A stretch of DNA of 63,805 nt from Candidatus Magasanikiibacteriota bacterium (GTDB lineage Bacteria > Patescibacteriota > Patescibacteriia > Magasanikbacterales > GWA2-37-8). The notes beneath the pieces are model-generated. The model worked only from the letters and a program-made list of their open reading frames with translations. It had not been told where the DNA came from and did no database searches. This document shows, piece after piece, positions 18,380-58,070 of this stretch; position 1 is the first letter of the stretch; every line of letters begins with the position of its first letter. Made by a program: the position numbers and the translations under genes. Location: positions 1-63,805 of the forward strand of contig JBAYHH010000004.1 of assembly GCA_041666265.1 (NCBI GenBank), read 5' to 3'.

Positions 18380-18417
18380 CAAGTGCCGTCCCTTTTTGTT
18401 TTTAATCATTTTAATAT

Positions 18418-33949: not shown

Positions 33950-34116
33950 GTAAACAAAAACTCCCGGCTCTATTCTTTTGAGAAAAGCGACGATAAACGC
34001 CACAGTTCGAACCGGAAGCAATTCCATTATTATAATACACGAATAATGGGATAAAGTCAATATATTATACTTTCTTATTTAATATTAGCCAAAATGGCTG
34101 TGGATAACTTATTAAT

Positions 34117-39871: not shown

Positions 39872-39948
39872 GTGTTCGCAGTGATATGATGTGCCAAAGC
39901 GACACTGCGGAGCACAAGGAGCGTGGCACATCATATCACTGCGAATAC
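39872..39948. repeat. Nested palindromic repeat (family B)
   Basis: Arms gtgttcgcagtgatatgatgtgcc/ggcacatcatatcactgcgaatac around the core agcgacactgcggagcacaaggagcg. Confidence 0.6.
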
Positions 39949-39984
39949 TACCTCATCTCTCAATTTTATGCTATAATACCCCCT

Positions 39985-41781: not shown

Positions 41782-41833
41782 TTATGTTGGCTTCGCCATA
41801 TAATCTCATTCGTTTCTCTCACTCATTTCGATT

Positions 41834-42442: not shown

Positions 42443-42461
42443 CGGTCAAGTAAAAAATATT

Positions 42462-44027: not shown

Positions 44028-44894
44028 ATGATTAAGAAACTCGTTATCCCCGTCGCCGGTCTTGGCACGCGATTTTTGCCAGCCACCAAGGCCCAGCCCA
44101 AAGAAATGATGCCGGTGGTGGACAAGCCCATCATCCAATATATAGTGGAGGAAGCGGTGCGCGCCGGCATCACGGATATTATTTTAGTCACCGGTCCATC
44201 CAAACGCGCGGTGGAGGATCATTTCAGCCCCAATTACGAGCTCGTCAGCTGGCTAAAAAAACAAGGAAAAACCGAGGTGGCGGCCGAAGTCAAGAAAATC
44301 GCCGATTTAGCCAATTTTATTTTTATTCGTCAAAAAGGACCATACGGCAATGGCACCCCGATACTATGCGCCAAATCCGTGATCGGCAATGAGCCGTTCG
44401 CGGTGATGTGGGGCGATGAGTTTTTCATGTCTGACAAAAAACCCACTCTGCAACAAGTGATCGAGACTTTCGAAAAATATGGCGATCCGGTCTTGGCCGC
44501 GCATCGCGTGGACAAAGATGGCACCAAAAAATACGGCATCATGGACGGTGTTGAAATTGAAAATAAAGTTTTTCAGGTGAAGAATATCGTCGAAAAACCC
44601 GGGCCGGAAAAAGCCCCGTCGTCATTGGCGATTTTGGGCGGCGGCGGTTATGTTTTGACGCCGGACATTTTTGAGGCGCTCGAAAATACCAAGGTTGGCA
44701 AAGGGGGAGAGCTGTGGCTCACCGACGCGATTTTTAAATTGCTCAAAAAACGCCCGCTCTACGCGCGTGAAGTCGATGGCGAGTATTACGACACCGGCTC
44801 TAAGCTCGGTTATCTCAAAGCCAATGTGGAATTCGCCTTGCGCGACGCCAAATTGGGCGCGGATTTTAGGAAGTATTTGAAAAGTGTGGTATAA
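44028..44894 (+). CDS. galU: UTP--glucose-1-phosphate uridylyltransferase
   Basis: KLVIPVAGLGTRFLPATKAQPKEMMPVVDKPIIQY. Confidence 0.9.
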   Translation: MIKKLVIPVAGLGTRFLPATKAQPKEMMPVVDKPIIQYIVEEAVRAGITDIILVTGPSKRAVEDHFSPNYELVSWLKKQGKTEVAAEVKKIADLANFIFIRQKGPYGNGTPILCAKSVIGNEPFAVMWGDEFFMSDKKPTLQQVIETFEKYGDPVLAAHRVDKDGTKKYGIMDGVEIENKVFQVKNIVEKPGPEKAPSSLAILGGGGYVLTPDIFEALENTKVGKGGELWLTDAIFKLLKKRPLYAREVDGEYYDTGSKLGYLKANVEFALRDAKLGADFRKYLKSVV

Positions 44895-45030: not shown

Positions 45031-46419
45031 ATGAGTACTATTTCCAAAAAAATAATCAGCTTGATTTCAATAGCGGGTGTTTTGGCGTTGTTTGGTTTTG
45101 GTTGTAAAGGCCTGACCGTGGAACAAAAACAAGCGACCGCGTCGGTAGCGCTCGAATATTGGACAGTATATGATGATGTGGACGCGATTAATGGGCTCAT
45201 AGCGAAATACAAACAGCTGCGACCTTATCTCAAAGTGACCGTGCGTCAATTTCGCGCCGATGAGCTGTACCAAAAATTGATCGAGGCGCTGGCGGATGAT
45301 CGCGGACCGGATATTATCTCCGTAAGCAATCGCGAATTGCGCCAATATTATACTAAACTCGCGCCGATGCCGGGCAGTGTCAAAGATACGACTGTGCAGG
45401 TGATCCAAAGCAAACTCGGCAGTGAAACCAAAGTGAACATCGGCACCGTGACTCTGCCGTCGGTGGATCAGATCGATCGCGAATATGTGCCGGCGGTCAA
45501 AAAAGACGCAGTGATCGGCGGGCGGATTTATGGCTTGCCGTTGTCGTTTGACACGATGGCGATTTATTATAATAAAGATCTTTTGGACAGAGCCGGACTG
45601 CCCGAGCCTCCCAAAAATTGGGACGATTTTCAATCAGCGGTGAAAAAAATCACCCGCTACGACCGCGAGGCCGACAAGATCAATCAGGCCGGAGCGGCGC
45701 TTGGTACCGGCAATAATGTCGTGGGCGCCGATGATATTATTTATTTACTATTCAATCAAAGCAGTATTCCGTTTACCGCTGATAGCGGCCAAGCTTCGCT
45801 TGGAGGTAAGGATTCGTCGGGCGCATTTACGGTAATGAATTTTTTCACGGATTTCGCCAATAGCCAGCGCGACACCTACACCTGGAACGAAAAAATGGGT
45901 AGTTCTTTGGATCAATTTGTCAATGGTTCACTCGCGTTTTTCTTTGGGTATAGCTATCATTTGCCGATCATTCGCGGACGCGCTCCGCAACTGAATTTTT
46001 CGGTGATGCCGATGATCCAATTGAGCTCGGATGAGGCGGATTTCAAAAATGTGGCCAATTATTCTTTGCAGACGGTGACCGCCAAATCGCGTCACCCGGG
46101 CGAGGCTTGGGCGCTGATAAATTACATGACTCATTCGAGCGCGAACGGGGATTACTTGAGCGCCACCAAGCGCCCGACCGCTTTGCGCTCATATATTTCC
46201 CAGCAAAAAGACGACAACGACCTAAAGCCGTTTGTCGGGCAATTGCTCGTGGCGAAAAATTGGTATCATGGGCGCAATTATAGCGCGGCGGTGAAGGCGC
46301 TCGCGGATTTATTTCATGAATGGCTCAATCCGCCGGCCAATCTCAATCAAGATCGCGCCGACAAATGGCGCAGTGATTTGCTCAATCGCACGGGGAGTCG
46401 GATTAATCAAACACTTTAA
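45031..46419 (+). CDS. ABC-transporter extracellular solute-binding lipoprotein (sugar type), orphan
   Basis: Lipobox LFGFGC and family-1 SBP-like sequence. No permease or ATPase genes are adjacent. Confidence 0.7.
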   Translation: MSTISKKIISLISIAGVLALFGFGCKGLTVEQKQATASVALEYWTVYDDVDAINGLIAKYKQLRPYLKVTVRQFRADELYQKLIEALADDRGPDIISVSNRELRQYYTKLAPMPGSVKDTTVQVIQSKLGSETKVNIGTVTLPSVDQIDREYVPAVKKDAVIGGRIYGLPLSFDTMAIYYNKDLLDRAGLPEPPKNWDDFQSAVKKITRYDREADKINQAGAALGTGNNVVGADDIIYLLFNQSSIPFTADSGQASLGGKDSSGAFTVMNFFTDFANSQRDTYTWNEKMGSSLDQFVNGSLAFFFGYSYHLPIIRGRAPQLNFSVMPMIQLSSDEADFKNVANYSLQTVTAKSRHPGEAWALINYMTHSSANGDYLSATKRPTALRSYISQQKDDNDLKPFVGQLLVAKNWYHGRNYSAAVKALADLFHEWLNPPANLNQDRADKWRSDLLNRTGSRINQTL

Positions 46420-46424
46420 AGAAG

Positions 46425-46556
46425 TTTTTCAGCCAAACAGTTGTTATTTTTCTTGCGCCCAGACTTGGTTTTTCGGCCAACGGCCGAAAAACCTACGCCC
46501 CGCGCGGCGGGGTGCGATGGGCGCTGGCGAAAAACAGCAACTGTTCGGCTGAAAAA
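46425..46556. repeat. Nested palindromic element (family B-like)
   Basis: 28-nt outer arms tttttcagccaaacagttgttatttttc/gaaaaacagcaactgttcggctgaaaaa enclose the inner hairpins tttttcggcc-aac-ggccgaaaaa and cgccccgc-gcg-gcggggtg. Confidence 0.6.
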
Positions 46557-46565: not shown

Positions 46566-46961
46566 ATGAGATTTTATAAAAAAATTATCGCGATTGTTTT
46601 GACGGCGATGATTTTGGCACCCTCGGCTTTTGCGAGCGCCGCGGGGATTTTACCCGATTGTTTACAAACACCCGGAAGCGAATTTAGCGATGCCTGTTTA
46701 AGCATCAATACTTTTGTGGAATTGGCGCTCAATATCGGCGCGTTTGCTTTTTCAGTGATTGGCGCTTTGGCTCTGGCCGCGCTGATTTACGGCGGGTTTA
46801 TGCTGGTGATCGCGGGAGGAAACTCCGAGCGCGTCACCAAAGGTTGGGGGGCGATTTTCGCCGCCGCGATTGGTCTGGGCGTGACATTTAGCGGGTATAT
46901 TTTAGTTAGTTTTATAATCAAAGCCATCGGCGCGAAAGAAGGCTTGAGTTTGATACCGTAA
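46566..46961 (+). CDS. VirB2/TrbC-like two-helix 'pilin' paralog 1
   Basis: Signal/TM N-terminus. Core: LIYGGFMLVIAGGNSERVTKGWGAIFAAAIGLGVTFSGYILVSF. Start at MRFYKK. Confidence 0.7.
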   Translation: MRFYKKIIAIVLTAMILAPSAFASAAGILPDCLQTPGSEFSDACLSINTFVELALNIGAFAFSVIGALALAALIYGGFMLVIAGGNSERVTKGWGAIFAAAIGLGVTFSGYILVSFIIKAIGAKEGLSLIP

Positions 46962-46963
46962 AT

Positions 46964-47845
46964 ATGTCAAATGCAAAAAAATTTTGGTTGATGTTAGTAT
47001 TTGCTGGTTTTTTTATTTTTTTTGCCCAGGAGGTAAAAGCCTGGTGTGTTTGTGATAGCGGTACTTCAGACGCGACCACAAAATCAGACTGCGAGGATGT
47101 CGGAGATTGTCACTGGAAAGACGATGAAAGCGTAACTTGTCTTTGTCCAGACCAAACCGGTGCGTTTAACAGCGAGATAGCGTCTACTAATGGAGAGTGC
47201 CCGTTAGATTGTAAAAGATCCCAAAGCGCGGATGCCAATACTATTAATAATGCCGCTAATAATGCCGCCAAGACTGACGATACTGCCAACGGCTCGGCAA
47301 ATAAAAAAGACGACCCGGCTTTGCAAGCAACTTTTGAGGGTTTCAAAACTGCGGCCAAAGAGAAATTAAATCCGGCCAACTTTGATAATTTAAACAAAGC
47401 CTTTGGTCGGGTCATCGGGTTTTTTGCGGCCGGCATCGGGTCGTTCGCCCTTGCACTCTATATCTGGGCCGGATTTTTGTGGATGACAGCGATGGGAAAT
47501 AGTGATAGAATTGAGAAGGCCAAAGATACGATTGTTTGGACGAGCCTCGGCGCCGCGGTGATACTCTCGGCGTATGTGATCGTAAGTTTCGTATTTACGA
47601 GTATTGTGCCAGTGGCGGCACCCGGCGCGACCGGGGGTAGTCCGGCTGATAGCACGCCGGCGGCAACGGCTCCGCCATCAGATGGGCGCGGTGCCTGTAT
47701 GTGCAATGTTGATTTTAGTGATGGCGATGTTGGTAGTCAAGTCAGATGTATGATTCGATACAGCGCAGAAGAGTGTAATGCAACCTGCGAGGATTATCAA
47801 GGTTATATGGTTGGTTTTAATCCTGGTGCGCAGTGCACGAATTAA
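46964..47845 (+). CDS. Pilin-like paralog 2 with N- and C-terminal Cys-rich modules
   Basis: Core: LYIWAGFLWMTAMGNSDRIEKAKDTIVWTSLGAAVILSAYVIVSF. There are 8 Cys before the core and 6 Cys in the C-terminal tail. Confidence 0.75.
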   Translation: MSNAKKFWLMLVFAGFFIFFAQEVKAWCVCDSGTSDATTKSDCEDVGDCHWKDDESVTCLCPDQTGAFNSEIASTNGECPLDCKRSQSADANTINNAANNAAKTDDTANGSANKKDDPALQATFEGFKTAAKEKLNPANFDNLNKAFGRVIGFFAAGIGSFALALYIWAGFLWMTAMGNSDRIEKAKDTIVWTSLGAAVILSAYVIVSFVFTSIVPVAAPGATGGSPADSTPAATAPPSDGRGACMCNVDFSDGDVGSQVRCMIRYSAEECNATCEDYQGYMVGFNPGAQCTN

Positions 47846-47865
47846 ATCAAAGATAGTGAAATGCT

Positions 47866-48237
47866 ATGAAAAAAAGCTTTTCAATTTTATCCGTCATATT
47901 TATCGCTGTAATATTTTTTTTCAGCAATTTCCTTTTTGTTTCCGCCGCCACGGTCTCGTCGCAAACTACGGAAAAAGTCACTTTGGAAAATCCGATTAAC
48001 GCCTCGACCGCCCCGCAATTTATCGGCACGGTGATCAAGGGTTTTATCGGGATTTTGGGCGCGGTGGTGCTGTTTATGTTTTTGTTGGGTGGATTCGAGT
48101 GGCTCACGGCCGGGGGGAACGCGGAAAAAGTGAAAAAAGGGACCGAGACGATGCTATGGGCGACGATTGGCACGGTGATTATTTTCAGCAGTTATTTTTT
48201 GATTTCCGCATGGCTCAAGGGGATTTTGGGGGGTTAG
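47866..48237 (+). CDS. Pilin-like paralog 3
   Basis: Core: FLLGGFEWLTAGGNAEKVKKGTETMLWATIGTVIIFSSYFLIS. Confidence 0.75.
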   Translation: MKKSFSILSVIFIAVIFFFSNFLFVSAATVSSQTTEKVTLENPINASTAPQFIGTVIKGFIGILGAVVLFMFLLGGFEWLTAGGNAEKVKKGTETMLWATIGTVIIFSSYFLISAWLKGILGG

Positions 48238-48254
48238 GGATATAATATTTTAAC

Positions 48255-48405
48255 TGTCATTCTGAGCCTGCCTGCCGGTAGGCAGGCGAAGCGAAGAATC
48301 TATAATCAAATTGTCATCCCGAGCGAGGATTCGCATCCGACGAGGGATCTCCAAGCAATTAGCAATTTACCAGGTGAAGATTCCTCACATTCGTTCGGAA
48401 TGACA
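48255..48405. repeat. Composite of family A repeats (two units)
   Basis: ctgtcattctgagcctgcctgccggtaggcaggcgaagcgaagaatc, followed by ttgtcatcccgagcgaggattcgcatccgacgagggatctcc...gaagattcctcacattcgttcggaatgaca. Confidence 0.7.
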
Positions 48406-48457
48406 ATGATAAAATAATAAAATGTATGAACAAAAATTTTGGAAGGGAGGTGAGAAT

Positions 48458-48865
48458 ATGAGAAGAATGATTATGATCGCGTCTATGGCGATGATGCTCG
48501 CGTTGCCGTTGTTGTCGGCCGGATCGGTTTTGGCCGAACCAAGCACACAACCGATAAGTACGGAAGAGATGGGAATTACCTATGGCGCCTATACCGGCTT
48601 GACCGAGGGTGATATTCGCGTTACTATCGCCAATATTATCCGTATCGCGATGTCGCTTTTGGGTATCGTGGCTGTGGTTATCATCCTCATCGGTGGATTC
48701 ACTTGGATGACTGCCGGCGGTAATGATGACAAGATCGGTGAAGCCAAGAAATGGATTTTCGCCGGTGTGATGGGTCTGGCTATTATTTTGTCCGCTTACG
48801 CTTTGGCGACATTTGTGATCAACAGTTTGGTTGATGCCACAGGTGGTGAAGTCACCCCTCAATAA
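48458..48865 (+). CDS. Pilin-like paralog 4
   Basis: A GGGAGG Shine-Dalgarno lies 7 nt upstream of the ATG at 48458. Core: LIGGFTWMTAGGNDDKIGEAKKWIFAGVMGLAIILSAYALATF. Confidence 0.8.
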   Translation: MRRMIMIASMAMMLALPLLSAGSVLAEPSTQPISTEEMGITYGAYTGLTEGDIRVTIANIIRIAMSLLGIVAVVIILIGGFTWMTAGGNDDKIGEAKKWIFAGVMGLAIILSAYALATFVINSLVDATGGEVTPQ

Positions 48866-49018
48866 AATTCAGCGGGACAGGCGCGTTTGCCGGGGCCCAG
48901 GAGTCATTTGGCTCTATGGCATATATGCGGCAGGCGCGCCTTCCCGGCTGGGTCGTGACGAATATTTAATTTTGAATTTTGAATTTTTAATCAATAATTT
49001 AATATTTAAAATTATAAT

Positions 49019-49420
49019 ATGAAACCTTCTTCTAAAATATTACTATTCGTGATCCTGATCGTAGGGCTTTTGTCCATGATCGGCTCATCGGTGGCGGTCG
49101 CGGCATTTAATCCCTTGACCAGCACGGGTTTGTCAGACGCTCAAAGCGCCGCCGAACTGCCGACTACTTTGGGCCCGGGCAAGGCGGCCACTTTCCCCCA
49201 GCTCATCGGTGAAGCGATCGGCATTGGGTTGTCGCTTGTCGGCATGTTGTTTTTTCTGTTGATGCTCTATGGCGGGCTGTATTGGATGATTGCGCGCGGG
49301 GACAGCTCCAAGGTGGACAAAGCCAAAGACACGATCGAGGCGGCGGTGATCGGCCTCGTGATTGTCAGCGGCGCCTATGCCATCGCCAATTTTATTTTTT
49401 CCAGTATCGTGGGGCAATGA
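49019..49420 (+). CDS. Pilin-like paralog 5
   Basis: Core: LYGGLYWMIARGDSSKVDKAKDTIEAAVIGLVIVSGAYAIANF. Confidence 0.8.
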   Translation: MKPSSKILLFVILIVGLLSMIGSSVAVAAFNPLTSTGLSDAQSAAELPTTLGPGKAATFPQLIGEAIGIGLSLVGMLFFLLMLYGGLYWMIARGDSSKVDKAKDTIEAAVIGLVIVSGAYAIANFIFSSIVGQ

Positions 49421-49824
49421 AGCCAATATTTATGCGCGCCATTAAATACAAGCAATTCATTTTAACGACAATTGTAATGCTGGGATTGATTGTTCCGGTT
49501 TTGGTTTGGGGCGCCGCGCCTACGCCCAAAGATAATTTGACTAAATTGGGCGGGGAAAAATCCGCCAGTTTGGGACTTAGTAATAATTTGGGAGAAATCG
49601 CCGGCACAATTGTCAAAGGCACTTTATCGGTAGTGGGCACAATTTTCTTCATTTTAATTATTTACGCCGGTTTTCTTTGGATGACCGCGGCCGGCGCCGA
49701 AGACAAGACCGAATCAGCCCAAAAAATCGTGACCATGGCGGTGATCGGCCTCGCCATCGTGATGGCGGCTTATGCGATCACCGTGTTTGTGATGGGGGGA
49801 TTTGGGGTGACGATATCCAAGTAG
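49417..49824 (+). CDS. Pilin-like paralog 6
   Basis: Start at MKPIFMRAI via an ATGA overlap with paralog 5. Core: IYAGFLWMTAAGAEDKTESAQKIVTMAVIGLAIVMAAYAITVF. Confidence 0.8.
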   Translation: MKPIFMRAIKYKQFILTTIVMLGLIVPVLVWGAAPTPKDNLTKLGGEKSASLGLSNNLGEIAGTIVKGTLSVVGTIFFILIIYAGFLWMTAAGAEDKTESAQKIVTMAVIGLAIVMAAYAITVFVMGGFGVTISK

Positions 49825-49842
49825 TGAAATAATTATTTTTTT

Positions 49843-50214
49843 ATGAAAAAATTATTTTTGATTACCATTGTAGTTGTGGGGTTGGGAATGTTTTGGGATT
49901 ATTCCATATCAATGGCGGCCGCCGGCTTGGGACAGGCCGGCGCGAATCTGCAATCCACCGGCGCTGTCACTAAATTAAGCAGTGATTTATCAGCCACTGT
50001 TTTGATTGTTCTTAATGCTATTCTCGCGATTGTCGGTTCACTGTTTTTGATTTTATCCATTTACGCCGGCTATCTCTGGATGACTGCGGCCGGTAATGCC
50101 GAGCGCGCGGATAAGGGAAAAACGATTTTAAAAGAAGTGGTGATTGGTTTGGTTTTGACTCTGTCAGTTCTTGCTATCACCAATTTTGTCGGAACTAAAT
50201 TCGGCGCTCAATAA
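49843..50214 (+). CDS. Pilin-like paralog 7
   Basis: Core: IYAGYLWMTAAGNAERADKGKTILKEVVIGLVLTLSVLAITNF. Confidence 0.8.
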   Translation: MKKLFLITIVVVGLGMFWDYSISMAAAGLGQAGANLQSTGAVTKLSSDLSATVLIVLNAILAIVGSLFLILSIYAGYLWMTAAGNAERADKGKTILKEVVIGLVLTLSVLAITNFVGTKFGAQ

Positions 50215-50216
50215 TT

Positions 50217-50798
50217 ATGAAAAAAATTATTTTACTTATCATGATTTTGGCGCTCTGTGCGCCGGTAATTACCCGCGCGGCGAGTGTCTCACCGGGCTGG
50301 AAAAATGGTCTGGCTAATTTGACCGGATTTGTGGGCGGGGCGGGACTGGAAACCGATATTACCAACCCGATCGCGGCGGTAATCGCGATGGCGCTCGCGC
50401 TCATCGGCATGATATTTTTGGTTTTGACTATTTATGCCGGATTTCTTTGGCTCACGGCCCGGGGTGATTCGGGCCAGGTGGAGACCGCGCAAAAGATTCT
50501 AAAGGCGGCGGTGATCGGTTTGATTTTGGTGACGGCGGCGTATAGCATCACCTATTATGTGACCAAAATCACGCTGGGCGGGGAGAGCGGTGGTAATGAA
50601 GACAATGGCAAGAGCGCGTATTGCGCCGAGCAGGGCGGGCAATGTATTGGTGTCGATGATAATTGTCTCGGGGGCACGATTATTTCCGGCTTTACCGATT
50701 GCCGGTGTTGTATCAAGGATTCGCCTGATTCTAAATTACCGGGGCCCAACGAGTGTTGGTACGAAGGCGACCCGGGTTGTCCCACTCCTTCAAATTAA
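50217..50798 (+). CDS. Pilin-like paralog 8 with an 8-Cys C-terminal module
   Basis: Core: IYAGFLWLTARGDSGQVETAQKILKAAVIGLILVTAAYSITYY. Tail: CAEQGGQCIGVDDNCLGG...DCRCCIKD...ECWYEGDPGCP. Confidence 0.8.
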   Translation: MKKIILLIMILALCAPVITRAASVSPGWKNGLANLTGFVGGAGLETDITNPIAAVIAMALALIGMIFLVLTIYAGFLWLTARGDSGQVETAQKILKAAVIGLILVTAAYSITYYVTKITLGGESGGNEDNGKSAYCAEQGGQCIGVDDNCLGGTIISGFTDCRCCIKDSPDSKLPGPNECWYEGDPGCPTPSN

Positions 50799-50806
50799 CT
50801 TTTTTT

Positions 50807-51253
50807 ATGAAATATATTTTTTCAGCGATTTTAACGACAATCATTTGCGGTTTATTTGTTCATGCGGTTGTGGCCGCTCCGGCGATCAATGAGCTCACGG
50901 CGGATGTTGGGAAGAAATCCGGCTATGATACTGCCGTGGATAAATATACTTTGTCGCGCACAGTTGGGAAAATTATCCAGGCGGCGATGGCGCTCATCGG
51001 CATGATATTTTTGGTTTTGACGATTTACGCCGGATTTTTGTGGCTCACGGCCGGAGGGAATGACGAAAATGTCACCAAAGCCAAAGATATTTTGAAACAA
51101 GCGGTGATCGGGCTGATTATTGTTTTGTCGGCCTATAGTATCACCGTATTTGTGGCGATCATGATGAGTAGCTCCCAAAACGATCAAGGATTTTGGGGAG
51201 TATTTTCCAATTCCGGTTTCGGGTTTTATACCGGCCTAAGCACCGGACACTAA
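50807..51253 (+). CDS. Pilin-like paralog 9
   Basis: Start at MKYIFSAIL. Core: IYAGFLWLTAGGNDENVTKAKDILKQAVIGLIIVLSAYSITVF. Confidence 0.8.
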   Translation: MKYIFSAILTTIICGLFVHAVVAAPAINELTADVGKKSGYDTAVDKYTLSRTVGKIIQAAMALIGMIFLVLTIYAGFLWLTAGGNDENVTKAKDILKQAVIGLIIVLSAYSITVFVAIMMSSSQNDQGFWGVFSNSGFGFYTGLSTGH

Positions 51254-51258
51254 GCGCG

Positions 51259-51325
51259 CTGTCATTCCCGCGGAAGCGGGAATCCAGTCGCTGATTGTCC
51301 AAATATCCGCATGCGTGGCGATGAC
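51259..51325. repeat. Palindromic repeat variant (GTCATTCCCGCGGAAGCGGGAATCC type)
   Basis: ctgtcattcccgcggaagcgggaatcc...gcgtggcgatgaca has the same terminal tgtcat/atgaca ends as family A. Confidence 0.6.
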
Positions 51326-51346
51326 ATAATTATTTAGCCGTTATTT

Positions 51347-51922
51347 ATGAATAAAACAAAAATATTTTTTACAACACTGCTTATCGTCGGAGGATTATTC
51401 GGTGTTTTGGGACTGTTGACGACCGTGTCGGCCCAAGCCACTCAAGGCGAAGAAATCGTCAAACAACTCCAGGCTGGAGCCGGTGATGATGGCGCCAATC
51501 TACCCGCTCCGCGCGATCCGCGCATCGTGGCCGGCGGGATTATTCGTTCGGCGCTCGGACTCCTGGGGATACTATTCGTCTGTCTGATTATTTACGCCGG
51601 ATTTCTCTGGATGACCGCCGGGGGCAATGACGAAAATATCACCCAAGCGAAGTCCTATATTTTTAATGGCGTGATTGGGCTCATTATTATTCTATCCGCC
51701 TATATGATCACGATTTACGCTTTTAAAGTCGCCACGGCGCCGTATGGGCTCGGCGGAAATTGCACCAAAAACGCTGATTGCGGCAAGGATCGCAAATGTA
51801 ATCTTTATGGCAAATGCGTGGACAAGATGTGGTGCCAGAGCGATCGTGATTGTGGCAAGACCCAAACTTGTATAAATAGTTATTGCACGACCGCCGAGGA
51901 TTTGGGGAGTTATTTTAAATAA
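51347..51922 (+). CDS. Pilin-like paralog 10 with a duplicated 4-Cys module tail
   Basis: Core: IYAGFLWMTAGGNDENITQAKSYIFNGVIGLIIILSAYMITIY. Tail: CTKNADCGKDRKCNLYGKC + CQSDRDCGKTQTCINSYC. Confidence 0.8.
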   Translation: MNKTKIFFTTLLIVGGLFGVLGLLTTVSAQATQGEEIVKQLQAGAGDDGANLPAPRDPRIVAGGIIRSALGLLGILFVCLIIYAGFLWMTAGGNDENITQAKSYIFNGVIGLIIILSAYMITIYAFKVATAPYGLGGNCTKNADCGKDRKCNLYGKCVDKMWCQSDRDCGKTQTCINSYCTTAEDLGSYFK

Positions 51923-51939
51923 ATATTTTAATTGTTACA

Positions 51940-52035
51940 AAAAGACCGACAATATCTATTTTTTGCTTCAAGCTCGTCCGTTCGTTGCGACGAACGGACT
52001 CATGAGCCGCAAAAACAGATATTGTCGGCCTTTTT
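51940..52035. repeat. Nested palindromic element acting as a convergent terminator (family B-like)
   Basis: Arms gaccgacaatatctattttttgc/gcaaaaacagatattgtcggcc. Inner hairpin gtccgttcg-ttgcga-cgaacggac. Shares 'gactcatgagcc' with 36191-36202. Confidence 0.6.
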
Positions 52036-52051
52036 GAGTCAGTCCCAATAA

Positions 52052-53161
52052 CTATGACAGAATTGCGACAATCTTTTCGAGAATGATTTGGTTGGGGTTG
52101 GGAAGTGGAAGAGGATTAATTTTTTTTGGCTGACGCAGTATCTGATCGACCAAGTCCGGCAATTCGGCCGGTGTTTTTAATTTTGTGCCCAAATTATTTT
52201 TTTGCAAGTAGGTCAAATTATCCTCTTCTTGCCCGGGCACCGGATCGACGATGATCATTGGTTTGCGCAGATGCAGGCACTCGGTGACAGTGAGTCCGCC
52301 CGGTTTGGTGACGACGATATCGGCGAGGCGCAGGTATTCGTCGATATTTTCCACCCAGCCTTTTACTATATAATTGACAGAGGCGGGCGCAATCAATGAA
52401 TTTAATTGATTGAATAATTTAATATTTTTTCCGGCAATCGCCATGATATTAAATGGCCGATTGGATCTAAATAATATTTTTATCGCTTCGTCGATTTTGG
52501 CATAACCTTCGCCGCCGGATAAAAATATAATGGTTGGTTTTTTTGGGTCAATGTTGCGGGTGGTCTGCAAAGGTGCGAGTGGTTTATCTTCGAAAAATAC
52601 TTGATCAATCGGGATGCCGCTAACGGATATTTTTTTGGGATCGGCGCCGATCGCGATCAGATCGTTTTTAATTTCCGGCGTGGCCACAAAAAAATATTCG
52701 CTTGGCGACGCGCAGTGAAGGGCGTGAACGGCGTAGTCGGTAAGCAAAATCCCAATATTTTTCGTGATATTAAATTTGCGCGCGTGATTCAGGAGTAAAT
52801 CAGCCGGAGTAAAATGCGTGCAAAGAATAAAATCCGGCTGGAATTTTTCCACAAATCGAAAGAATTTTTGGGAGCCGATTTTTTTATTGAGTTTCGTGAG
52901 CCGGTTAAATACGCGCGCTCCGTCTGTGTCTTGGGTGGCGCGATAAATCGCTCCCCACAACCAGGGCGCGTATTTGGCCATCAGGCTGTATGACCGAAAA
53001 TAAAAAAAATTGGCCAAAGGGGATAGATAATCGACCACATCAATATGTTCGACTTCTATTTCAGGGTGGTGGATTTTGGAATATGACAAAAGCGCCTCGG
53101 CGGCGCGCACATGGCCGGTGCCTACCGAGCACGAGACAAAAAGTATCTTTGGGGAAGACAT
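52052..53161 (-). CDS. MGDG-synthase/UgtP-like diacylglycerol glycosyltransferase
   Basis: KILFVSCSVGTGHVRAAEAL N-terminus and a GT28-like C-terminal domain (VTKPGGLTVTECL). Confidence 0.7.
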   Translation of the reverse strand: MSSPKILFVSCSVGTGHVRAAEALLSYSKIHHPEIEVEHIDVVDYLSPLANFFYFRSYSLMAKYAPWLWGAIYRATQDTDGARVFNRLTKLNKKIGSQKFFRFVEKFQPDFILCTHFTPADLLLNHARKFNITKNIGILLTDYAVHALHCASPSEYFFVATPEIKNDLIAIGADPKKISVSGIPIDQVFFEDKPLAPLQTTRNIDPKKPTIIFLSGGEGYAKIDEAIKILFRSNRPFNIMAIAGKNIKLFNQLNSLIAPASVNYIVKGWVENIDEYLRLADIVVTKPGGLTVTECLHLRKPMIIVDPVPGQEEDNLTYLQKNNLGTKLKTPAELPDLVDQILRQPKKINPLPLPNPNQIILEKIVAILS

Positions 53162-53210
53162 ATTAACCCACTTTTTTGAAACTAACCTTTTTAGGAAGAA
53201 ATCCGTGCGG

Positions 53211-53285
53211 GGGTGCCTAACCGGAATCGAACCGGTGCTGCGAGTACCACAAACTCGCGTGCTGACCGTTACACCATAGGCACCC
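53211..53285 (-). tRNA. tRNA-His (anticodon GUG)
   Basis: Manual fold with an encoded G-1 opposite C73 and anticodon loop TTGTGGT. Confidence 0.88.
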
Positions 53286-53346
53286 CTACCAGGACTTCTA
53301 TTCTGATTTTATTCAAAATTTAAAATTAATTATTAAATATTCACCA

Positions 53347-53418
53347 GTGACCCCGCTAGGAATCGAACCTAGATCCGAAGCTTAGAAGGCTTCTATTCTA
53401 TCCATTGAACTACAGGGT
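53347..53418 (-). tRNA. tRNA-Arg (anticodon UCU)
   Basis: Manual fold of 72 nt with anticodon loop CTTCTAA and GGTTCGATTCC. Confidence 0.85.
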
Positions 53419-53521
53419 CATTTAACCCCGAGGGGGTAAGCTCAATCATCTTATCAGGTTTTGTGGGAAAAATCAAGATGTGGTATAATGAGAGGGTAAA
53501 ATTCATTAAATTGGTAAATTT

Positions 53522-54220
53522 ATGGTAAGAAAAATTGCTTCGGCAGTCGTTATCTGTTTGGCCTTTGTTTTGATTCCATGTTCTTCGGTATGTGCCGTAG
53601 CTGGAAGCGCGCCCACAGGTGCCGCATCGGCGAAGTCCGGTTTATATGGTCTCAATGAGACCGCTCCCAAAGCCGGATACGACACTGGCGTGACTTTGAT
53701 TCCCAAGTTAAATCAAGTAGTGGGTATTGGGTTGGGATTGATCGCCTTGGTATTTTTTGCCATGGCGCTCTACGCCGGTGTGCGCTGGCTCACGGCGCGC
53801 GGAAAAAGCGAGCTCTCGGAAAAAGCGCTCCAAGCGCTCGAGGCGGCCATCATCGGTATGGCGATCGTGGCGGCCTCATACGCGATCGCGATTTTTGTGA
53901 TAAATAAATTATATCCGGGAACAACTACACCGGGTGGCGCGACCAGTCCTTCCGGTGACAGTGGTTGTTGCACCGGTATTGCCACCGGCTCAGGGGCCGA
54001 TGCGAAGACTTATTGTCGCACTCAATATTTTGGTTCCGAGGTGTGGCCGAAGATCAAAAGTGATTGTGATTTGTATCAGGGGGTGTGGGTGGGTAAAGAT
54101 CCAAATTTAGTCGGTGATTGTACAATTTTTAGTGGCATGGCCGAGGAAAGTTGTCGCAAAAGTGGCGGGAATTTTGTCCAACAAGACTGTTCCACCATCC
54201 CCGGTTGCATGGTTCAATAA
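53522..54220 (+). CDS. Pilin-like paralog 11 with an 8-Cys C-terminal module
   Basis: Core: LYAGVRWLTARGKSELSEKALQALEAAIIGMAIVAASYAIAIF. The ~95-aa tail has 8 Cys. Separated from the main array by the glycosyltransferase gene and two tRNAs. Confidence 0.8.
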   Translation: MVRKIASAVVICLAFVLIPCSSVCAVAGSAPTGAASAKSGLYGLNETAPKAGYDTGVTLIPKLNQVVGIGLGLIALVFFAMALYAGVRWLTARGKSELSEKALQALEAAIIGMAIVAASYAIAIFVINKLYPGTTTPGGATSPSGDSGCCTGIATGSGADAKTYCRTQYFGSEVWPKIKSDCDLYQGVWVGKDPNLVGDCTIFSGMAEESCRKSGGNFVQQDCSTIPGCMVQ

Positions 54221-55832: not shown

Positions 55833-58070
55833 ATGTCTAATGTTAAGAATTGGTCCATGGAGTGGGGTGGTCGCACCTTGTCCGTGGAAACGGGGAGAAT
55901 GGCTCTTATTCCCAACTCCTCCTGCACTGTGCGCTATGGCGACACGGTGATTCTCGCGACCGCGGTGATCGACAAGCGCAAACGCGCCGGCATCGATTTT
56001 TTTCCGCTGATGGTGAACTTCGAAGAGAAGCTCTATGCCGCCGGAAAAATCAAAGGCTCGCGATTTATCAAGCGCGAAGGCCGACCGACCGAGGATGCAA
56101 TTTTGGCGGCTCGTCTCATTGATCGCGCCATTCGTCCGCTTTTCAATCAAGAAATCCGCAACGATGTGCAGGTGATCTTGACCGCGCTTTCTTGGGATGG
56201 CGAAAACGATTCGCAAATCCCGGGTTTTATCGCGGCGTCGATCGCTCTCGCCACTTCTTCGATCCCGTGGGACGGTCCGATTACGGCCGCGCGCGTGGGC
56301 CGAGTGGGCGGTAAATTCATTTTAAATCCTTCATTCAAAGAGCGGGCCGCGGGCGACTGCGATCTCGTGGTGGCCGGCACTCCGGACAAAGTGATCATGG
56401 TAGAGGCGGCCGCGACCGAGATGACCGAGGCCGACATGATGGCCGCTATGCAATTTGGCGGTGAGGCTTTGGGTCTGGTGCTCGAATTTATCAAAAAAAT
56501 TCAAAAAGAAATCGGCAAAGCCAAAATCAATCCGATCAATGCCAATGATGTCATCGAACAACAAATCCAAGCCACGGAAAAAGAAGTGGACGCTTTTGTC
56601 GCGAGCCATGTAAGCGATTGGATTTTTGACGCTCCCAAAAAAGATCGCGCCGAACGCGTATTGCTCATCGACAAATTTGCCAAGGCGATCAAAGAATTGC
56701 TCGACGGCCAAGAAGGTCTCGATGATGCGGTCAAGACCGTGGTACTGGGACGCGTCAAAATTTATGTGGAAAAATACATCAGCGAACGGATCATTGCCAA
56801 AGAACAGCGATTGGATGGACGCAAATTGGACGAGATCCGCGCTCTCAATGCCGAGGTGGGACTTTTGCCCCGCACTCATGGCACCGGTTTGTTTTCGCGC
56901 GGTGATACGCAAGTATTGTCCATCGTGACTCTGGGCGCGCCGGGCGATGTGCAGACTATCGATACCATGGAAGAAGACGGCACCAAGCGCTATATGCATC
57001 ATTACAATGATACTCCGGCCACCTATGGCGAGACTGGTCCATTGCGCGGACCGGGCAATCGTTCGATTGGTCACGGCGCTCTCGCCGAGCGCGCTATTTT
57101 ACCGATGTTGCCGGATGAAAAAGATTTTCCGTATGCCATTCGCGTGGTGTCCGAGGTCTTGGGCTCAAATGGTTCATCTTCAATGGCTTCGACTTGCGGA
57201 TCGACCCTCGCCCTCATGGACGCCGGTGTGCCGCTCAAAAAACCGGTCGCCGGAATTGCCATGGGTATCGCCACTGATGACAAAGGCAATTACAAGATTC
57301 TAACTGATTTACAAGATGTGGAAGACGGTCCGGGCGGCATGGATTTCAAAATTACCGGCACCCGCGACGGCATCACCGCCATTCAGATGGACACCAAGAC
57401 GACCGGTTTGAGTTGGGAAATTGTCAAAGAGACTTTTGCTCGTTCCCGCGAAGCTCGCCTCCGGATTTTGGATGTGATGGCGAAGACCATTCCGACCCCG
57501 CGCGCTGATTTGTCTCCGTATGCTCCGCGTATCATCACTATCATGATCAATCCGGACAAGATTCGCGATGTGATCGGCCCGGGCGGCAAGATGATCAATA
57601 AAATCATCGCCGAGACCGGTGTGTCGATCGACATCGAGGATGATGGCCGAGTTTGCATCACCTCGTCTGATTCGGTTGGTATGGAAAAAGCGGTCAGCTG
57701 GGTCAAAGAATTGACTCACGAAATTACCGCCGGTGAAATTTTCGACGGCACGGTCGTGCGTCTCGAAGACTTTGGCGCTTTTATCAATCTTTTGCCCGGT
57801 CAAGACGGTCTCGTGCATGTGTCCGAGATCGCTTGGACGCGCACCAATCGCCCGAGCGATGTGCTCAAATTGGGCGACAAGGTAAAAGTGATTGTGCGCG
57901 AGATCGACAATCTCGGTCGCGTGAACTTAAGCATTCGACAATTATTGCCCAAACCGGAGGGTTATGTCGAGAATTCACCGTTTAACGGCGGTGATCGCGG
58001 TGGCTTTGGCGGCGGTCGTCCCCAGCGCGGTGGCGGCGGTCGAGGCGGATTTGGCGGACGCAGACCGTAA
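55833..58070 (+). CDS. pnp: Polynucleotide phosphorylase with a Gly/Arg-rich tail
   Basis: Two RNase PH domains, KH (IRDVIGPGGKMINKI), S1 (GEIFDGTVVRLEDFGAFINL) and a C-terminal GGDRGGFGGGRPQRGGGGRGGFGGRRP. Confidence 0.93.
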   Translation: MSNVKNWSMEWGGRTLSVETGRMALIPNSSCTVRYGDTVILATAVIDKRKRAGIDFFPLMVNFEEKLYAAGKIKGSRFIKREGRPTEDAILAARLIDRAIRPLFNQEIRNDVQVILTALSWDGENDSQIPGFIAASIALATSSIPWDGPITAARVGRVGGKFILNPSFKERAAGDCDLVVAGTPDKVIMVEAAATEMTEADMMAAMQFGGEALGLVLEFIKKIQKEIGKAKINPINANDVIEQQIQATEKEVDAFVASHVSDWIFDAPKKDRAERVLLIDKFAKAIKELLDGQEGLDDAVKTVVLGRVKIYVEKYISERIIAKEQRLDGRKLDEIRALNAEVGLLPRTHGTGLFSRGDTQVLSIVTLGAPGDVQTIDTMEEDGTKRYMHHYNDTPATYGETGPLRGPGNRSIGHGALAERAILPMLPDEKDFPYAIRVVSEVLGSNGSSSMASTCGSTLALMDAGVPLKKPVAGIAMGIATDDKGNYKILTDLQDVEDGPGGMDFKITGTRDGITAIQMDTKTTGLSWEIVKETFARSREARLRILDVMAKTIPTPRADLSPYAPRIITIMINPDKIRDVIGPGGKMINKIIAETGVSIDIEDDGRVCITSSDSVGMEKAVSWVKELTHEITAGEIFDGTVVRLEDFGAFINLLPGQDGLVHVSEIAWTRTNRPSDVLKLGDKVKVIVREIDNLGRVNLSIRQLLPKPEGYVENSPFNGGDRGGFGGGRPQRGGGGRGGFGGRRP

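What the first reader, a model, noticed from the sequence alone, without database searches (positions are those of the whole stretch)
46566..54220. Array of 11 paralogous VirB2/TrbC-like two-helix 'pilin' genes with no T4SS machinery in sight
Ten head-to-tail genes (46566-51922) and an eleventh (53522-54220) lying beyond a glycosyltransferase gene and two tRNAs all share one architecture. It consists of a signal/TM segment, a variable ~40-70-aa region, then a conserved hairpin core. The core reads (I/L)Y(A/G)GFLW(M/L)TA(G/R)G(N/D)..., a short charged loop, then ..(A/V)(V/I)IGL(I/A)I(V/I)..AY.I..F. This is the topology and sequence style of conjugative VirB2/TrbC pilins, the 'T4SS pilin'-type family often annotated in CPR genomes (from memory). 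Spacing is tight (3-nt gaps, one ATGA overlap), so they are co-transcribed. The variable regions are essentially unrelated between paralogs. No VirB4/VirB6/VirD4/relaxase gene occurs within the window. Neighbours are an orphan sugar-binding lipoprotein, a lipid glycosyltransferase and galU. Eleven diversified subunits at one locus suggest a variable surface filament or membrane-embedded display scaffold, possibly for host-cell contact in an episymbiont. I cannot link it to a described function.
Basis: partly seen in the sequence, partly recalled or inferred. Interest (0 to 1): 0.85.

Follow-up and report, generated by a model that had tools for sequence, protein, structure and literature searches.

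The report
VirB2-like pilin gene array, Magasanikbacteria
This is a real cluster of eleven divergent VirB2/TrbC-type "pilin" genes in an ultrasmall (CPR/Patescibacteria) bacterium; such arrays are already published and essential in a cultivated relative, but here the array always follows a sugar-binding lipoprotein gene and lies away from the secretion machinery.

Summary
Ten tandem + strand genes (46566-51922) and an eleventh (53522-54220) share one architecture: a signal peptide, a variable segment, a conserved two-helix hairpin and an optional Cys-rich tail. Nine of the 11 pass the Pfam PF18895 (T4SS_pilin) cut-off, and no VirB4, VirB6 or VirD4 gene lies in the window.

Arrays of 2-11 divergent VirB2-like pilins in Patescibacteria were published in 2025 (PMC12102498). 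A six-gene array is essential in Southlakia epibionticum (PMC10633639).

The contig is from Candidatus Magasanikbacteria (class ABY1).

Points I did not find in the searchable literature:
- The array is an ordered set of old paralogs with positional orthologs in about 40 species. Paralog #4 is the most conserved.
- A carbohydrate-type solute-binding lipoprotein gene (45031-46419) directly precedes the first pilin in 76 of 76 evaluable loci, across different genomic contexts.
- None of these loci has a VirB4-like ATPase within 10 kb.
- 24% of the pilins carry C-terminal tails of 40 aa or more, and 87% of those tails have at least four cysteines.

Verdict: a new member of a known kind, of moderate interest.

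The parts
45031..46419 (+). Solute-binding lipoprotein gene (SBP_bac_1, carbohydrate type; conserved 'GFGCK' Cys25). It is the invariant first gene of the module.
   Evidence: PF01547 at 90 bits. Distant matches to sugar-binding SBPs in the PDB. Directly followed by a pilin-like ORF in 76 of 76 evaluable loci at 37-66% identity. No ABC permease or ATPase gene nearby.
46425..46556 (.). 132-nt palindromic, highly structured element between the SBP gene and pilin #1.
   Evidence: Inverted repeat I3. RNA fold of -78.3 kcal/mol, z = -8.0. No Rfam family. No copy in relatives.
46566..46961 (+). Pilin-like gene #1 (131 aa). Two Cys in the N-terminal ectodomain are conserved in 31 of 31 orthologs.
   Evidence: PF18895 at 31.2 bits; ortholog analysis.
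46964..47845 (+). Pilin-like gene #2 (293 aa). It has a long Cys-rich N-terminal ectodomain and a lineage-specific Cys-rich C-terminal tail.
   Evidence: PF18895 at 26.2 bits and TrbC at E = 0.015. The N-terminal Cys are 69-93% conserved; the tail is present in about 8% of orthologs.
47866..48237 (+). Pilin-like gene #3 (123 aa).
   Evidence: PF18895 at 36.2 bits; 35 positional orthologs.
48458..48865 (+). Pilin-like gene #4 (135 aa; alternative start 48422). It is the most conserved member and my candidate for the principal structural subunit.
   Evidence: PF18895 at 36.5 bits. The core is 78% identical across 35 orthologs. It is the paralog type confidently recognised in the most SBP-linked loci, 66 of 79 (#1 is next with 61), and it was recognised in 20 of the 22 distant arrays listed.
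49019..49420 (+). Pilin-like gene #5 (133 aa).
   Evidence: PF18895 at 27.5 bits.
49417..49824 (+). Pilin-like gene #6 (135 aa). Its start overlaps the end of #5 by 4 nt (ATGA).
   Evidence: PF18895 at 26.7 bits; overlap.
49843..50214 (+). Pilin-like gene #7 (123 aa).
   Evidence: PF18895 at 34.9 bits; NF045849 at E = 9e-8, below its cut-off.
50217..50798 (+). Pilin-like gene #8 (193 aa) with a Cys-rich C-terminal tail.
   Evidence: PF18895 at 31.5 bits; 9 Cys.
50807..51253 (+). Pilin-like gene #9 (148 aa). This is the member that was modelled.
   Evidence: PF18895 at 43.9 bits. AlphaFold2 hairpin H47-81/H86-121 with pLDDT above 90.
51347..51922 (+). Pilin-like gene #10 (191 aa) with a Cys-rich C-terminal tail.
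   Evidence: PF18895 at 30.1 bits; 9 Cys.
51919..52055 (.). Inverted repeat between the convergent ends of #10 and the glycosyltransferase gene. It is a likely bidirectional terminator that would close the array transcript.
   Evidence: Inverted repeat I1 with 45-nt arms.
52052..53161 (-). UgtP/MGDG-synthase-like glycolipid glycosyltransferase. It is syntenic between #10 and #11 in most relatives.
   Evidence: PF06925 at 85.6 bits. NF010135 diglucosyl-DAG synthase at 164 bits, below its cut-off of 500. Synteny.
53209..53419 (-). tRNA-His (53209-53284) and tRNA-Arg (53347-53419).
   Evidence: ARAGORN and Rfam.
53522..54220 (+). Pilin-like gene #11 (232 aa). It is the separate copy next to rpsO, with a Cys-rich tail. 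It is the only copy kept beside rpsO-pnp in three relatives (L045, L050, L052); at least one of them (L045/L134) has its SBP-linked array about 50 kb away on the same contig.
   Evidence: PF18895 at 20.5 bits, E = 5e-4, below the cut-off. Aligns with the paralogs. L045, L050 and L052 have only this copy upstream of PNPase; L134, on the same contig as L045, has an SBP followed by 8 pilin ORFs. S. epibionticum has an analogous pilin (SEML1_0024) next to the S15 gene.

Best explanation
The locus is the Magasanikbacteria (Patescibacteria, class ABY1) version of the Patescibacterial T4SS-associated VirB2-like pilin array.

Shown or directly inferred from sequence:
- Each gene encodes a Sec-exported preprotein.
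- After signal-peptide cleavage, the mature protein sits in the cytoplasmic membrane as a helical hairpin: N-terminus out, TM1, a short cytoplasmic loop (TAGGN-E-x-x-KAK), TM2, C-terminus out.
- The fast-evolving N-terminal segment and the optional Cys-rich C-terminal module therefore face the outside.

Inferred by homology with VirB2/TraA and with the essential array inside the S. epibionticum T4SS cluster:
- This membrane pool of hairpins is used by a VirB4/TrsD/VirB3-type platform encoded elsewhere on the chromosome.
- The platform builds a pilus-like or conduit-like surface structure at the contact with the host cell.

My own inference:
- The highly conserved #4-type subunit is the main building block.
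- The other ordered, non-redundant paralogs are specialised or minor subunits that decorate the structure.
- The lipoprotein SBP that always heads the operon works with them on the outer face of the membrane, as a glycan-binding receptor or adhesin or as a substrate-capture element.
For: Family:
- 9 of 11 genes pass the PF18895 cut-off.
- Members of a homologous SBP-linked array pass the TrbC/VirB2 PF04956 cut-off at 37.9 and 29.8 bits.
- hhalign of the family profile against Agrobacterium VirB2 aligns TM1-loop-TM2 in register, at E = 1e-3 and probability 21%.

Fold and topology:
- AlphaFold2 gives a hairpin with pLDDT above 90.
- All 11 have signal segments.
- The tails are Cys-rich and the ectodomains net acidic, consistent with an extracytoplasmic location.

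Lineage: PNPase is 77% identical to Magasanikbacteria MAGs.

Literature:
- Arrays of 2-11 divergent VirB2-like pilins are described in Patescibacteria. The mean identity reported there is 25% with a maximum of 54%; here it is 29% and 48%.
- The S. epibionticum array SEML1_0014-0019 is PF18895, essential, and adjacent to VirB4, PrgI and VirB6 homologues.
- That genome shows the same order of array, glycosyltransferase, tRNA, separate pilin and rpsO.
- A relative that carries the same array (GW2011_GWA2_37_8, locus L062) has VirB4, TrsD and VirB3 elsewhere in its genome (Table S3 of PMC12102498).

Ordered, non-redundant subunits: collinear positional orthologs occur in about 40 species. Core identity is 47-78% among orthologs against 35% among paralogs.

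SBP coupling: 76 of 76 loci.
Against: - No T4SS gene lies in the 64-kb window.
- No VirB4-like ATPase lies within 10 kb of any of about 120 related loci, 2.59 Mb in total. The functional link to a T4SS is therefore by homology only.
- I could not verify that this genome has a virB4 gene at all.
- Foldseek found no significant match to solved conjugative pilins. The best was the Aeropyrum pernix conjugative pilus, at E = 5.9 and TM-score 0.58.
- The family profile found no PDB sequence match.
- The window's own proteins do not reach the PF04956 cut-off.
- Tails of 60-400 aa on a quarter of the subunits are hard to fit into a tightly packed VirB2-type helical filament.
- No pilus has yet been seen in any Patescibacterium, according to the papers read.
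Confidence: 0.68

Rival explanations
1. T4SS-independent envelope module. The hairpins are never polymerised into a pilus. They stay in the cytoplasmic membrane as anchors or hetero-oligomeric rings that display Cys-rich or variable ectodomains. Together with the co-operonic SBP lipoprotein they form an adhesion or solute-capture/uptake device.
For: - The SBP gene, a hallmark of import systems, heads the array in 76 of 76 loci, with tight or overlapping junctions in L084 and L085.
- The module is never within 10 kb of a VirB4-like gene in ABY1.
- 145 of 601 pilin ORFs carry tails of at least 40 aa, and 126 of these have at least 4 Cys. Some tails reach 413 aa, which fits membrane-anchored display better than filament packing.
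- No ABC permease lies beside the SBP gene.
Against: - The same Pfam family sits inside the T4SS cluster of S. epibionticum and is co-essential with it.
- Relatives do encode VirB4, TrsD and VirB3.
- I know of no precedent for an SBP feeding a channel made of 2-TM hairpins.
- Arrays without an SBP exist in other lineages, so the SBP is not intrinsic to the family.
Confidence: 0.17
2. Antigenic or host-range variation repertoire. The paralogs are interchangeable major pilins expressed one (or a few) at a time to evade host defences or match different host strains, as proposed for the VirB2 paralogs of Bartonella and Anaplasma.
For: - The exposed N-terminal segments are almost unrelated between paralogs, at 17.5% identity.
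- Those segments evolve fast among orthologs, at 14-37% identity.
- The middle of the array (#5-#8) varies in copy number between species.
- A 70-nt tract is 91% identical between #8 and #9.
- The published survey suggests this reading.
Against: - #1-#4 and #9-#11 keep their order and identity across about 23-38 species representatives, which argues for distinct, non-redundant roles.
- There are no long identical cassettes.
- No inverted repeats flank promoter-like regions in a way that would suggest an invertible switch.
- DNA identity between cores is only 60-87% over short tracts.
- A near-identical population sampled elsewhere shows 1 mismatch in 2643 nt, so no strain-level diversification was seen.
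Confidence: 0.1
3. These are unrelated small two-TM membrane proteins (holin-, bacteriocin- or immunity-like, or generic) that match PF18895 only through hydrophobic composition.
For: - The window proteins give many weak hits to unrelated TM families.
- Fold search cannot tell helical hairpins apart.
- Scores are close to the gathering cut-off for several members.
Against: - The loop motif, which is not merely hydrophobic, is conserved.
- PF18895 E-values reach 2.6e-11.
- Sister arrays bridge to PF04956 above its cut-off.
- The profile gives zero hits in control loci.
- The synteny is shared with the S. epibionticum T4SS locus.
Confidence: 0.03

Closest known systems
Patescibacterial VirB2-like pilin arrays (Quinonero-Coronel et al. 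2025, PMC12102498; S. epibionticum SEML1_0014-0019, Wang et al. 2023, PMC10633639)
   Same: - The same Pfam family (PF18895).
- Tandem arrays of 2-11 genes, sometimes interrupted by a non-pilin gene.
- Very low identity between paralogs.
- A Patescibacterial chromosome rather than a mobile element.
- No relaxase nearby.
- The same local order of array, glycosyltransferase, tRNA, separate pilin and rpsO as in S. epibionticum.
   Different: - Here the array is not next to VirB4, VirB3 or VirB6. In S. epibionticum it abuts them.
- Here it is headed by an SBP lipoprotein gene, a link not mentioned in the papers I could search.
- A quarter of the members in this clade carry Cys-rich C-terminal domains.
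- The published Table S3, as stored, lists only one VirB2 for a relative in which I find eight PF18895 ORFs.
Conjugative VirB2/TrbC/TraA pilins of Gram-negative T4SSs (T-pilus, F-pilus; Pfam PF04956)
   Same: - A signal peptide followed by a two-helix hairpin with a short cytoplasmic or lumenal loop.
- Both termini are predicted to lie outside.
- Weak profile similarity in register, including a shared G-x-x-W-M motif at the end of TM1.
   Different: - The host is a monoderm.
- There are many paralogs instead of one gene.
- The N-terminal ectodomains are longer (26-118 aa), and tails reach hundreds of residues.
- The genes are not encoded with the machinery.
- The window proteins score below the PF04956 cut-off.
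- No structural match is significant.
- Polymerisation and lipid co-assembly are unknown.
Tandem VirB2 paralogs of Bartonella and Anaplasma phagocytophilum effector T4SSs
   Same: Several divergent virB2 copies lie in tandem, and surface variation has been suggested as their role (cited).
   Different: - Those arrays lie within or beside the virB operon of intracellular Proteobacteria.
- Here the paralogs are ancient, ordered and individually conserved across species, which fits specialisation better than variation.
PrgZ/TraC pheromone-binding lipoproteins of enterococcal conjugative plasmids (from my own knowledge)
   Same: They are SBP-family lipoproteins genetically associated with a Gram-positive T4SS, acting as extracellular ligand receptors.
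   Different: - PrgZ is an OppA-type peptide binder (a different SBP family) that feeds the Opp permease.
- Here the SBP is carbohydrate-type, with no permease nearby.
- The similarity is an analogy only and was not tested.

Membership tests
Pfam PF18895 T4SS_pilin | Whole-protein HMM score at or above the gathering cut-off (26.6 bits) | tested here: met
   Nine of 11 proteins score 26.7-43.9 bits. #2 scores 26.2 bits and #11 scores 20.5 bits (E = 5e-4), both below the cut-off, but both align with the others.
Pfam PF04956 TrbC/VirB2 pilin | Whole-protein HMM score at or above the gathering cut-off (27.9 bits) | tested here: not met
   The best window scores are 16.0 bits (#2) and 14.7 bits (#4). 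In the homologous SBP-linked array L085, 2 of 9 members pass at 37.9 and 29.8 bits, so the link is indirect.
VirB2-type conjugative pilin (functional class) | A cleavable signal peptide followed by a two-helix transmembrane hairpin | tested here: met
   Hydrophobicity profile and AxA-like sites in all 11. AlphaFold2 hairpin H47-81/H86-121 with pLDDT above 90 for #9. Cleavage itself was not tested.
VirB2-type conjugative pilin (functional class) | Encoded within or beside a T4SS cluster containing VirB4 | tested here: not met
   No VirB4, VirB6 or VirD4 family is recorded on any called gene of the contig. The window has no VirB4-like Walker-A ORF. None lies within 10 kb of about 120 related loci.
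VirB2-type conjugative pilin (functional class) | Structural similarity to solved VirB2, TraA or CedA1 pilins | tested here: inconclusive
   Foldseek against the PDB gave nothing at E <= 0.001. The A. pernix conjugative pilus (8dfu) ranked 6th, at E = 5.9 and TM-score 0.58 normalised to the target. Helical hairpins are not discriminated by this method.
VirB2-type conjugative pilin (functional class) | Polymerises into an extracellular lipid-containing filament that depends on VirB4 | not testable with these tools
   This needs cryo-EM, cryo-ET or genetics. The review states that pilus formation in Patescibacteria is still only a possibility.
Patescibacterial VirB2-like pilin array (PMC12102498) | [quoted passage not shown] | tested here: met
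   The locus has 10 + 1 genes. Between #10 and #11 lie one protein-coding gene (the glycosyltransferase) and two tRNA genes, slightly more than the single intervening non-pilin gene in the published definition. Mean identity is 29% and the maximum 48%, against the published 25% and 54%. PNPase is 77% identical to Magasanikbacteria MAGs.
Patescibacterial VirB2-like pilin array (PMC12102498) | The same genome encodes a Patescibacteria-clade VirB4 | not testable with these tools
   Only a 65.7-kb contig of this organism is available. A relative with the same array (GCA_000992085.1, locus L062) has VirB4, TrsD and VirB3 at CDS 794-796, according to the paper's Table S3.
Type IV pilus (T4P) pilins | An N-terminal prepilin cleavage/methylation motif (PF07963/TIGR02532) | tested here: not met
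   None of the 11 proteins has the motif. The motif is present in the unrelated upstream genes 39886-41781 and 41834-42442.
ABC-transporter solute-binding protein (for gene 45031-46419) | An SBP fold together with adjacent permease and ATPase genes | tested here: not met
   The fold is met (PF01547 at 90 bits; PDB sugar SBPs). No permease or ATPase gene lies in the neighbourhood here or in L084 and L085.

The most novel reading that the evidence does not exclude
In class ABY1 the VirB2-like array has been uncoupled from the T4SS gene cluster and recruited, together with a carbohydrate-type SBP lipoprotein, into a conserved stand-alone operon. This would be an SBP-primed surface apparatus. The SBP would recognise or capture a host-derived glycan or solute. 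A hetero-oligomer of ordered pilin paralogs (a #4-type core plus decorated subunits) would form the contact or uptake conduit. That would be the first genetic handle on import through a T4SS-derived structure in episymbionts.
Probability: 0.2. Interest if true: 0.8.

Novelty: new member of a known kind. Interest (0 to 1): 0.45.

Why it matters
How Patescibacteria use their unusual, relaxase-less and apparently essential T4SS is an open question. Reviews speculate about a pilus-like conduit for exchange with the host.

This locus adds three testable constraints:
- The pilin paralogs are an ordered, anciently fixed set with one highly conserved member. This argues for a hetero-oligomeric structure rather than simple antigenic variation.
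- In a whole class (ABY1) the array is genetically separate from virB4 but welded to a sugar-type binding lipoprotein. This points to a ligand-recognition or uptake step.
- Many subunits carry disulfide-rich ectodomains that should be displayed on the cell surface.

As a plain annotation, however, the array is ordinary for CPR genomes. The family has about 98,000 representatives at 50% identity in public data.

Tried and rejected
- Sequence search of the family profile against the PDB gave only chance TM matches.
- Foldseek of the #9 model against the PDB gave nothing significant.
I used the SBP and PNPase as anchors instead.
- I tried to locate virB4 in array-bearing genomes:
  - A strict Walker A/B scan of 2.59 Mb of held loci found 0 candidates.
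  - A relaxed Walker A scan found only FtsK, an antisense artefact, a 1392-aa multidomain protein with lectin-like, PKD and sugar-dehydrogenase domains, and two clusters I did not scan, whose positions match genes with SMC-type and Lon/Mg-chelatase-type Pfam hits.
  - I fetched pCF10 PrgJ as a possible seed. I ran no further search on it, because Firmicutes homologues would swamp the output.
- dN/dS of core against variable regions was not computed. The nearest orthologous set is 42-72% identical at the protein level, so synonymous sites are saturated. The only close copy differs by 1 nt in 2643.
- T4P-pilin identity was rejected, because none of the 11 has an N_methyl motif.
- An invertible-switch or cassette mechanism was rejected for lack of long direct or inverted repeats.
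- Promoter and terminator consensus scans were uninformative.
- The Cys-rich tails match no Pfam family convincingly (DUF7107 at E = 0.029). They are too heterogeneous to align, so I ran no further search on them.

Full report
**1. Observation**

ORF listing and translation give ten head-to-tail + strand genes between 46566 and 51922. An eleventh lies at 53522-54220, separated by a - strand glycosyltransferase gene (52052-53161), tRNA-His and tRNA-Arg.

All 11 products have an N-terminal hydrophobic segment ending in an AxA-like site, followed by two more hydrophobic helices. The MAFFT alignment gives the consensus IYAGFLWMTAxGNxExxxKAK...AVIGLxIxxSAYxIxxFV.

Pairwise identity averages 29% overall (range 20-48%). 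It is 35% in the 72-residue hairpin core and 17.5% in the segment between signal peptide and core.

Intergenic gaps are 2, 20, 220, 153, -4, 18, 2, 8 and 93 nt. Co-transcription is therefore plausible but not demonstrated. A 45-nt-arm inverted repeat between the convergent ends of #10 and the glycosyltransferase gene looks like a bidirectional terminator.

**2. Family**

Nine of the 11 proteins pass the gathering cut-off of Pfam PF18895 'T4SS_pilin' (26.7-43.9 bits against 26.6). #2 scores 26.2 bits and #11 scores 20.5 bits.

Hits to classic TrbC/VirB2 (PF04956) are weak in the window (E = 0.015 and 0.037). Hits to NCBIfam NF045849 (Mycoplasma ICE pilin-like protein) fall below its cut-off. 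In a homologous array from another lineage (L085), however, two of nine members pass the PF04956 cut-off (37.9 and 29.8 bits) and five more hit it weakly. In S. epibionticum, two array members also carry PF04956 hits. The family is thus bridged to VirB2/TrbC.

- A profile of 99 family members aligned against Agrobacterium VirB2 places TM1-loop-TM2 in register, but only at E = 1e-3 and 21% probability. The VirB2 sequence was verified against PDB 8cue.
- AlphaFold2 with that alignment gives a confident hairpin (H47-81 and H86-121, pLDDT above 90; overall pLDDT 77).
- Foldseek against the PDB is not significant. The A. pernix conjugative pilus ranks 6th at E = 5.9.
- The profile finds nothing in PDB sequences. 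This is weak evidence, since Agrobacterium VirB2 itself finds no other solved pilin.
- None of the 11 has a type IV pilus prepilin motif.

**3. Organism and context**

The window is ENA contig k141_1038159 of ERZ27249449. A JGI contig is 99.96% identical over 2.6 kb.

PNPase (55833-58070) is up to 77% identical to Candidatus Magasanikbacteria MAGs. The T4SS survey lists this lineage under class ABY1.

Precomputed Pfam annotation of the whole contig shows no VirB4, VirB6, VirD4 or relaxase. The only Walker-A ORFs of at least 250 aa are RuvB, an AAA_15 protein and an ORF in the mobile island.

Upstream neighbours are two T4P-type minor-pilin-like genes and a 461-aa protein, then galU and an SBP_bac_1 lipoprotein gene. 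Downstream lie rpsO, a NYN-domain gene and pnp.

**4. What is already known**

Full-text search found that this kind of array is published.

- Quinonero-Coronel et al. 2025 report 441 arrays of 2-11 VirB2-like pilin genes in 383 Patescibacterial assemblies. The genes are tandem or separated by one non-pilin gene. Mean identity is 25% and the maximum 54%. The pilin gene lies near virB4 in only 1135 of 1948 assemblies.
- Wang et al. 2023 showed by Tn-seq that a series of predicted pilins in the T4SS cluster of S. epibionticum is essential. Their tables show SEML1_0014-0019 as PF18895 proteins beside VirB6-, PrgI- and VirB4-like genes.

**5. What the comparative data add**

(a) *Conservation and order.* A profile of the hairpin core was run on the 10 kb upstream of pnp in 76 GTDB species representatives. 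It finds the same arrangement in about 40 of them: SBP, 8-11 pilins, a glycosyltransferase, one pilin, rpsO, NYN, pnp. It finds none in relatives with PNPase identity of about 66% or less, apart from the separate copy in L052.

Best-hit assignment is collinear. #1, #2, #3, #4, #5, #9, #10 and #11 have positional orthologs in 16-38 species. #5-#8 are fluid in number.

Core identity among orthologs is 47-78% (#4: 78%), against 35% among paralogs. Exposed N-terminal segments are 14-37% identical. Cys-rich tails are mostly lineage-specific. The two Cys of the #1 ectodomain are conserved in 31 of 31 orthologs.

#4-type subunits are confidently recognised in 66 of 79 SBP-linked loci, more than any other type (#1 is next with 61). 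They were recognised in 20 of the 22 distant arrays listed.

(b) *SBP coupling.* The SBP gene precedes the first pilin in all Magasanikbacteria loci. It does so also in unrelated contexts, in a Falkowbacteria contig and two other assemblies, with a 1-nt gap or a 4-nt overlap.

Searching GTDB genomes with an SBP alignment gave at least 559 relatives. Of the best 80 (37-66% identity), 76 had at least 800 bp of downstream sequence. All 76 have a pilin-like ORF opening within 400 bp of the SBP end, followed by 1-13 pilins.

The SBP is a distant member of the carbohydrate-binding cluster. It has an invariant GFGCK motif after its signal sequence and no ABC permease nearby. Other lineages have arrays without an SBP (S. 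epibionticum). I found no paper that mentions this link.

(c) *Separation from the machinery.* In 2.59 Mb of flanks around about 120 loci, the relaxed Walker-A scan gave five clusters of large ORFs. Pfam identified two: FtsK and a 1392-aa multidomain protein with lectin-like, PKD and sugar-dehydrogenase domains. One is an antisense artefact. The other two were not scanned; their positions match genes with SMC-type and Lon/Mg-chelatase-type Pfam hits.

A relative that carries the array (GW2011_GWA2_37_8, L062) has VirB4, TrsD and VirB3 elsewhere, according to the published Table S3. That table, as stored, lists only one VirB2 for this genome, whereas I find eight PF18895 ORFs on contig LBTN01000021.1.

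(d) *Shared order with Saccharimonadia.* In S. epibionticum the array is followed by Hsp20, ComF, tRNA-Ser, a GT-C glycosyltransferase, a separate non-essential PF18895 pilin and rpsO. This mirrors the window's order of array, glycosyltransferase, tRNAs, #11 and rpsO. It supports common ancestry of the loci.

(e) *Ectodomains.* Of 601 pilin ORFs in the SBP-linked arrays, 145 have tails of at least 40 aa after the core, and 126 of those have at least 4 Cys. Tails reach 413 aa with 52 Cys.

(f) *Abundance.* The family has 98,378 representatives at 50% identity at E <= 1e-3.

**6. Mechanism**

Shown:
- The sequence architecture, the family assignment and the hairpin fold.
- The predicted extracytoplasmic location of both termini. 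This rests on the signal peptide, the net acidic ectodomains and the disulfide-rich tails.

Inferred by homology:
- The hairpins are substrates of a VirB4-type platform encoded elsewhere.
- They form a pilus- or conduit-like structure at the host interface.

My inference:
- #4 is the principal subunit.
- The others are specialised, non-redundant subunits.
- The SBP acts with them as receptor, adhesin or capture element.

Rivals are listed with their evidence: T4SS-independent display or uptake complex (0.17), antigenic or host-range variation (0.10) and spurious family assignment (0.03).

**7. Verdict**

This is a new member of a published kind.

Interest is moderate (0.45) because of three features that appear undescribed and make the function more testable: the SBP coupling, the ordered orthology, and the systematic separation from virB4 in ABY1.

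Noticed in passing
window 1-20000: A 35% GC block sits against about 47% GC for the rest of the window. It carries two serine recombinases (11197-12543, 18418-19896), a Rep protein, ParB-fused and other N6/N4 methyltransferases, an AAA_15 + RloB pair (9468-10682, 8928-9455), and Ltp and SHOCT proteins. It ends at tRNA-Ser (19884-19971). It is probably an integrated mobile element or an assembly join. Its interior recurs on other contigs (L004, L005).
   Followed up: partly
window 2995-3113 (-) and 15848-15974 (-): Two LOOT RNA (RF03000) matches at 79 and 74.5 bits, both inside the low-GC island.
   Followed up: no
window 33956-34019 (-): A DUF3800-IX RNA (RF02968, 47.9 bits) lies immediately next to the DUF3800 gene 33320-33949.
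   Followed up: no
window 39886-43847: Two type IV pilus minor-pilin-like genes carry prepilin motifs; one is 631 aa with a CarboxypepD_reg domain. A 461-aa protein with a weak PilX_N hit follows. This trio plus galU is conserved upstream of the SBP-array in most Magasanikbacteria, including distant ones.
   Followed up: partly
window 46425-46556: A 132-nt palindromic element lies between the SBP stop and the pilin #1 start. It has a 28-bp outer stem enclosing two perfect hairpins, at -78.3 kcal/mol and z = -8.0. It has no Rfam family and no copy elsewhere in the window or in relatives. One other locus (L141) has a similarly stable insert at the same place. It could be a MITE/REP-like insertion or an attenuator that separates SBP and pilin expression.
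   Followed up: partly
window 50390-50459 and 50983-51052: A 70-nt tract is 91% identical between the cores of pilins #8 and #9, well above the 60-75% seen between other paralog cores. This may be a short gene-conversion tract or a younger duplication.
   Followed up: no
window 52052-53161 and 44028-44894; S. epibionticum SEML1_0023: A glycolipid-type glycosyltransferase (UgtP-like) is embedded in the pilin locus, and galU (UDP-glucose supply) lies upstream. A different glycosyltransferase (GT-C, PglB/ArnT-like) occupies the equivalent place in S. epibionticum. Since VirB2-type pili are lipid-protein polymers and pilins are often glycosylated (my own knowledge), a glycolipid partner or pilin glycosylation is worth testing.
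   Followed up: no
P0098-P0210 (search of protein representatives): The top-scoring family representatives are proteins of 200-820 aa with 2-8 separate hairpin matches. They are either real multi-hairpin fusions or neighbouring array genes merged by gene callers that read through stop codons (for example in recoded CPR lineages).
   Followed up: no
L062 (LBTN01000021.1) against Table S3 of PMC12102498: The published component table, as stored, lists one VirB2 for GCA_000992085.1. Eight ORFs on this contig hit PF18895, six of them at 35-44 bits, above the 26.6-bit cut-off, and two below it (23.9 and 18.3 bits). Magasanikbacteria arrays may be under-counted in that survey.
   Followed up: partly
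record titles of L011, L013, L019 and others: Many contigs that clearly belong to Magasanikbacteria (PNPase 70-77% identical, same synteny) are deposited as 'uncultured Gammaproteobacteria', 'Methanoregula', 'Udaeobacter' or 'Bacillota' MAGs. These look like mislabelled or mis-binned records.
   Followed up: no
window 28727-29122 and 27911-28690: A PemK-family toxin gene lies next to a TrmB-type regulator gene, with no obvious antitoxin called.
   Followed up: no
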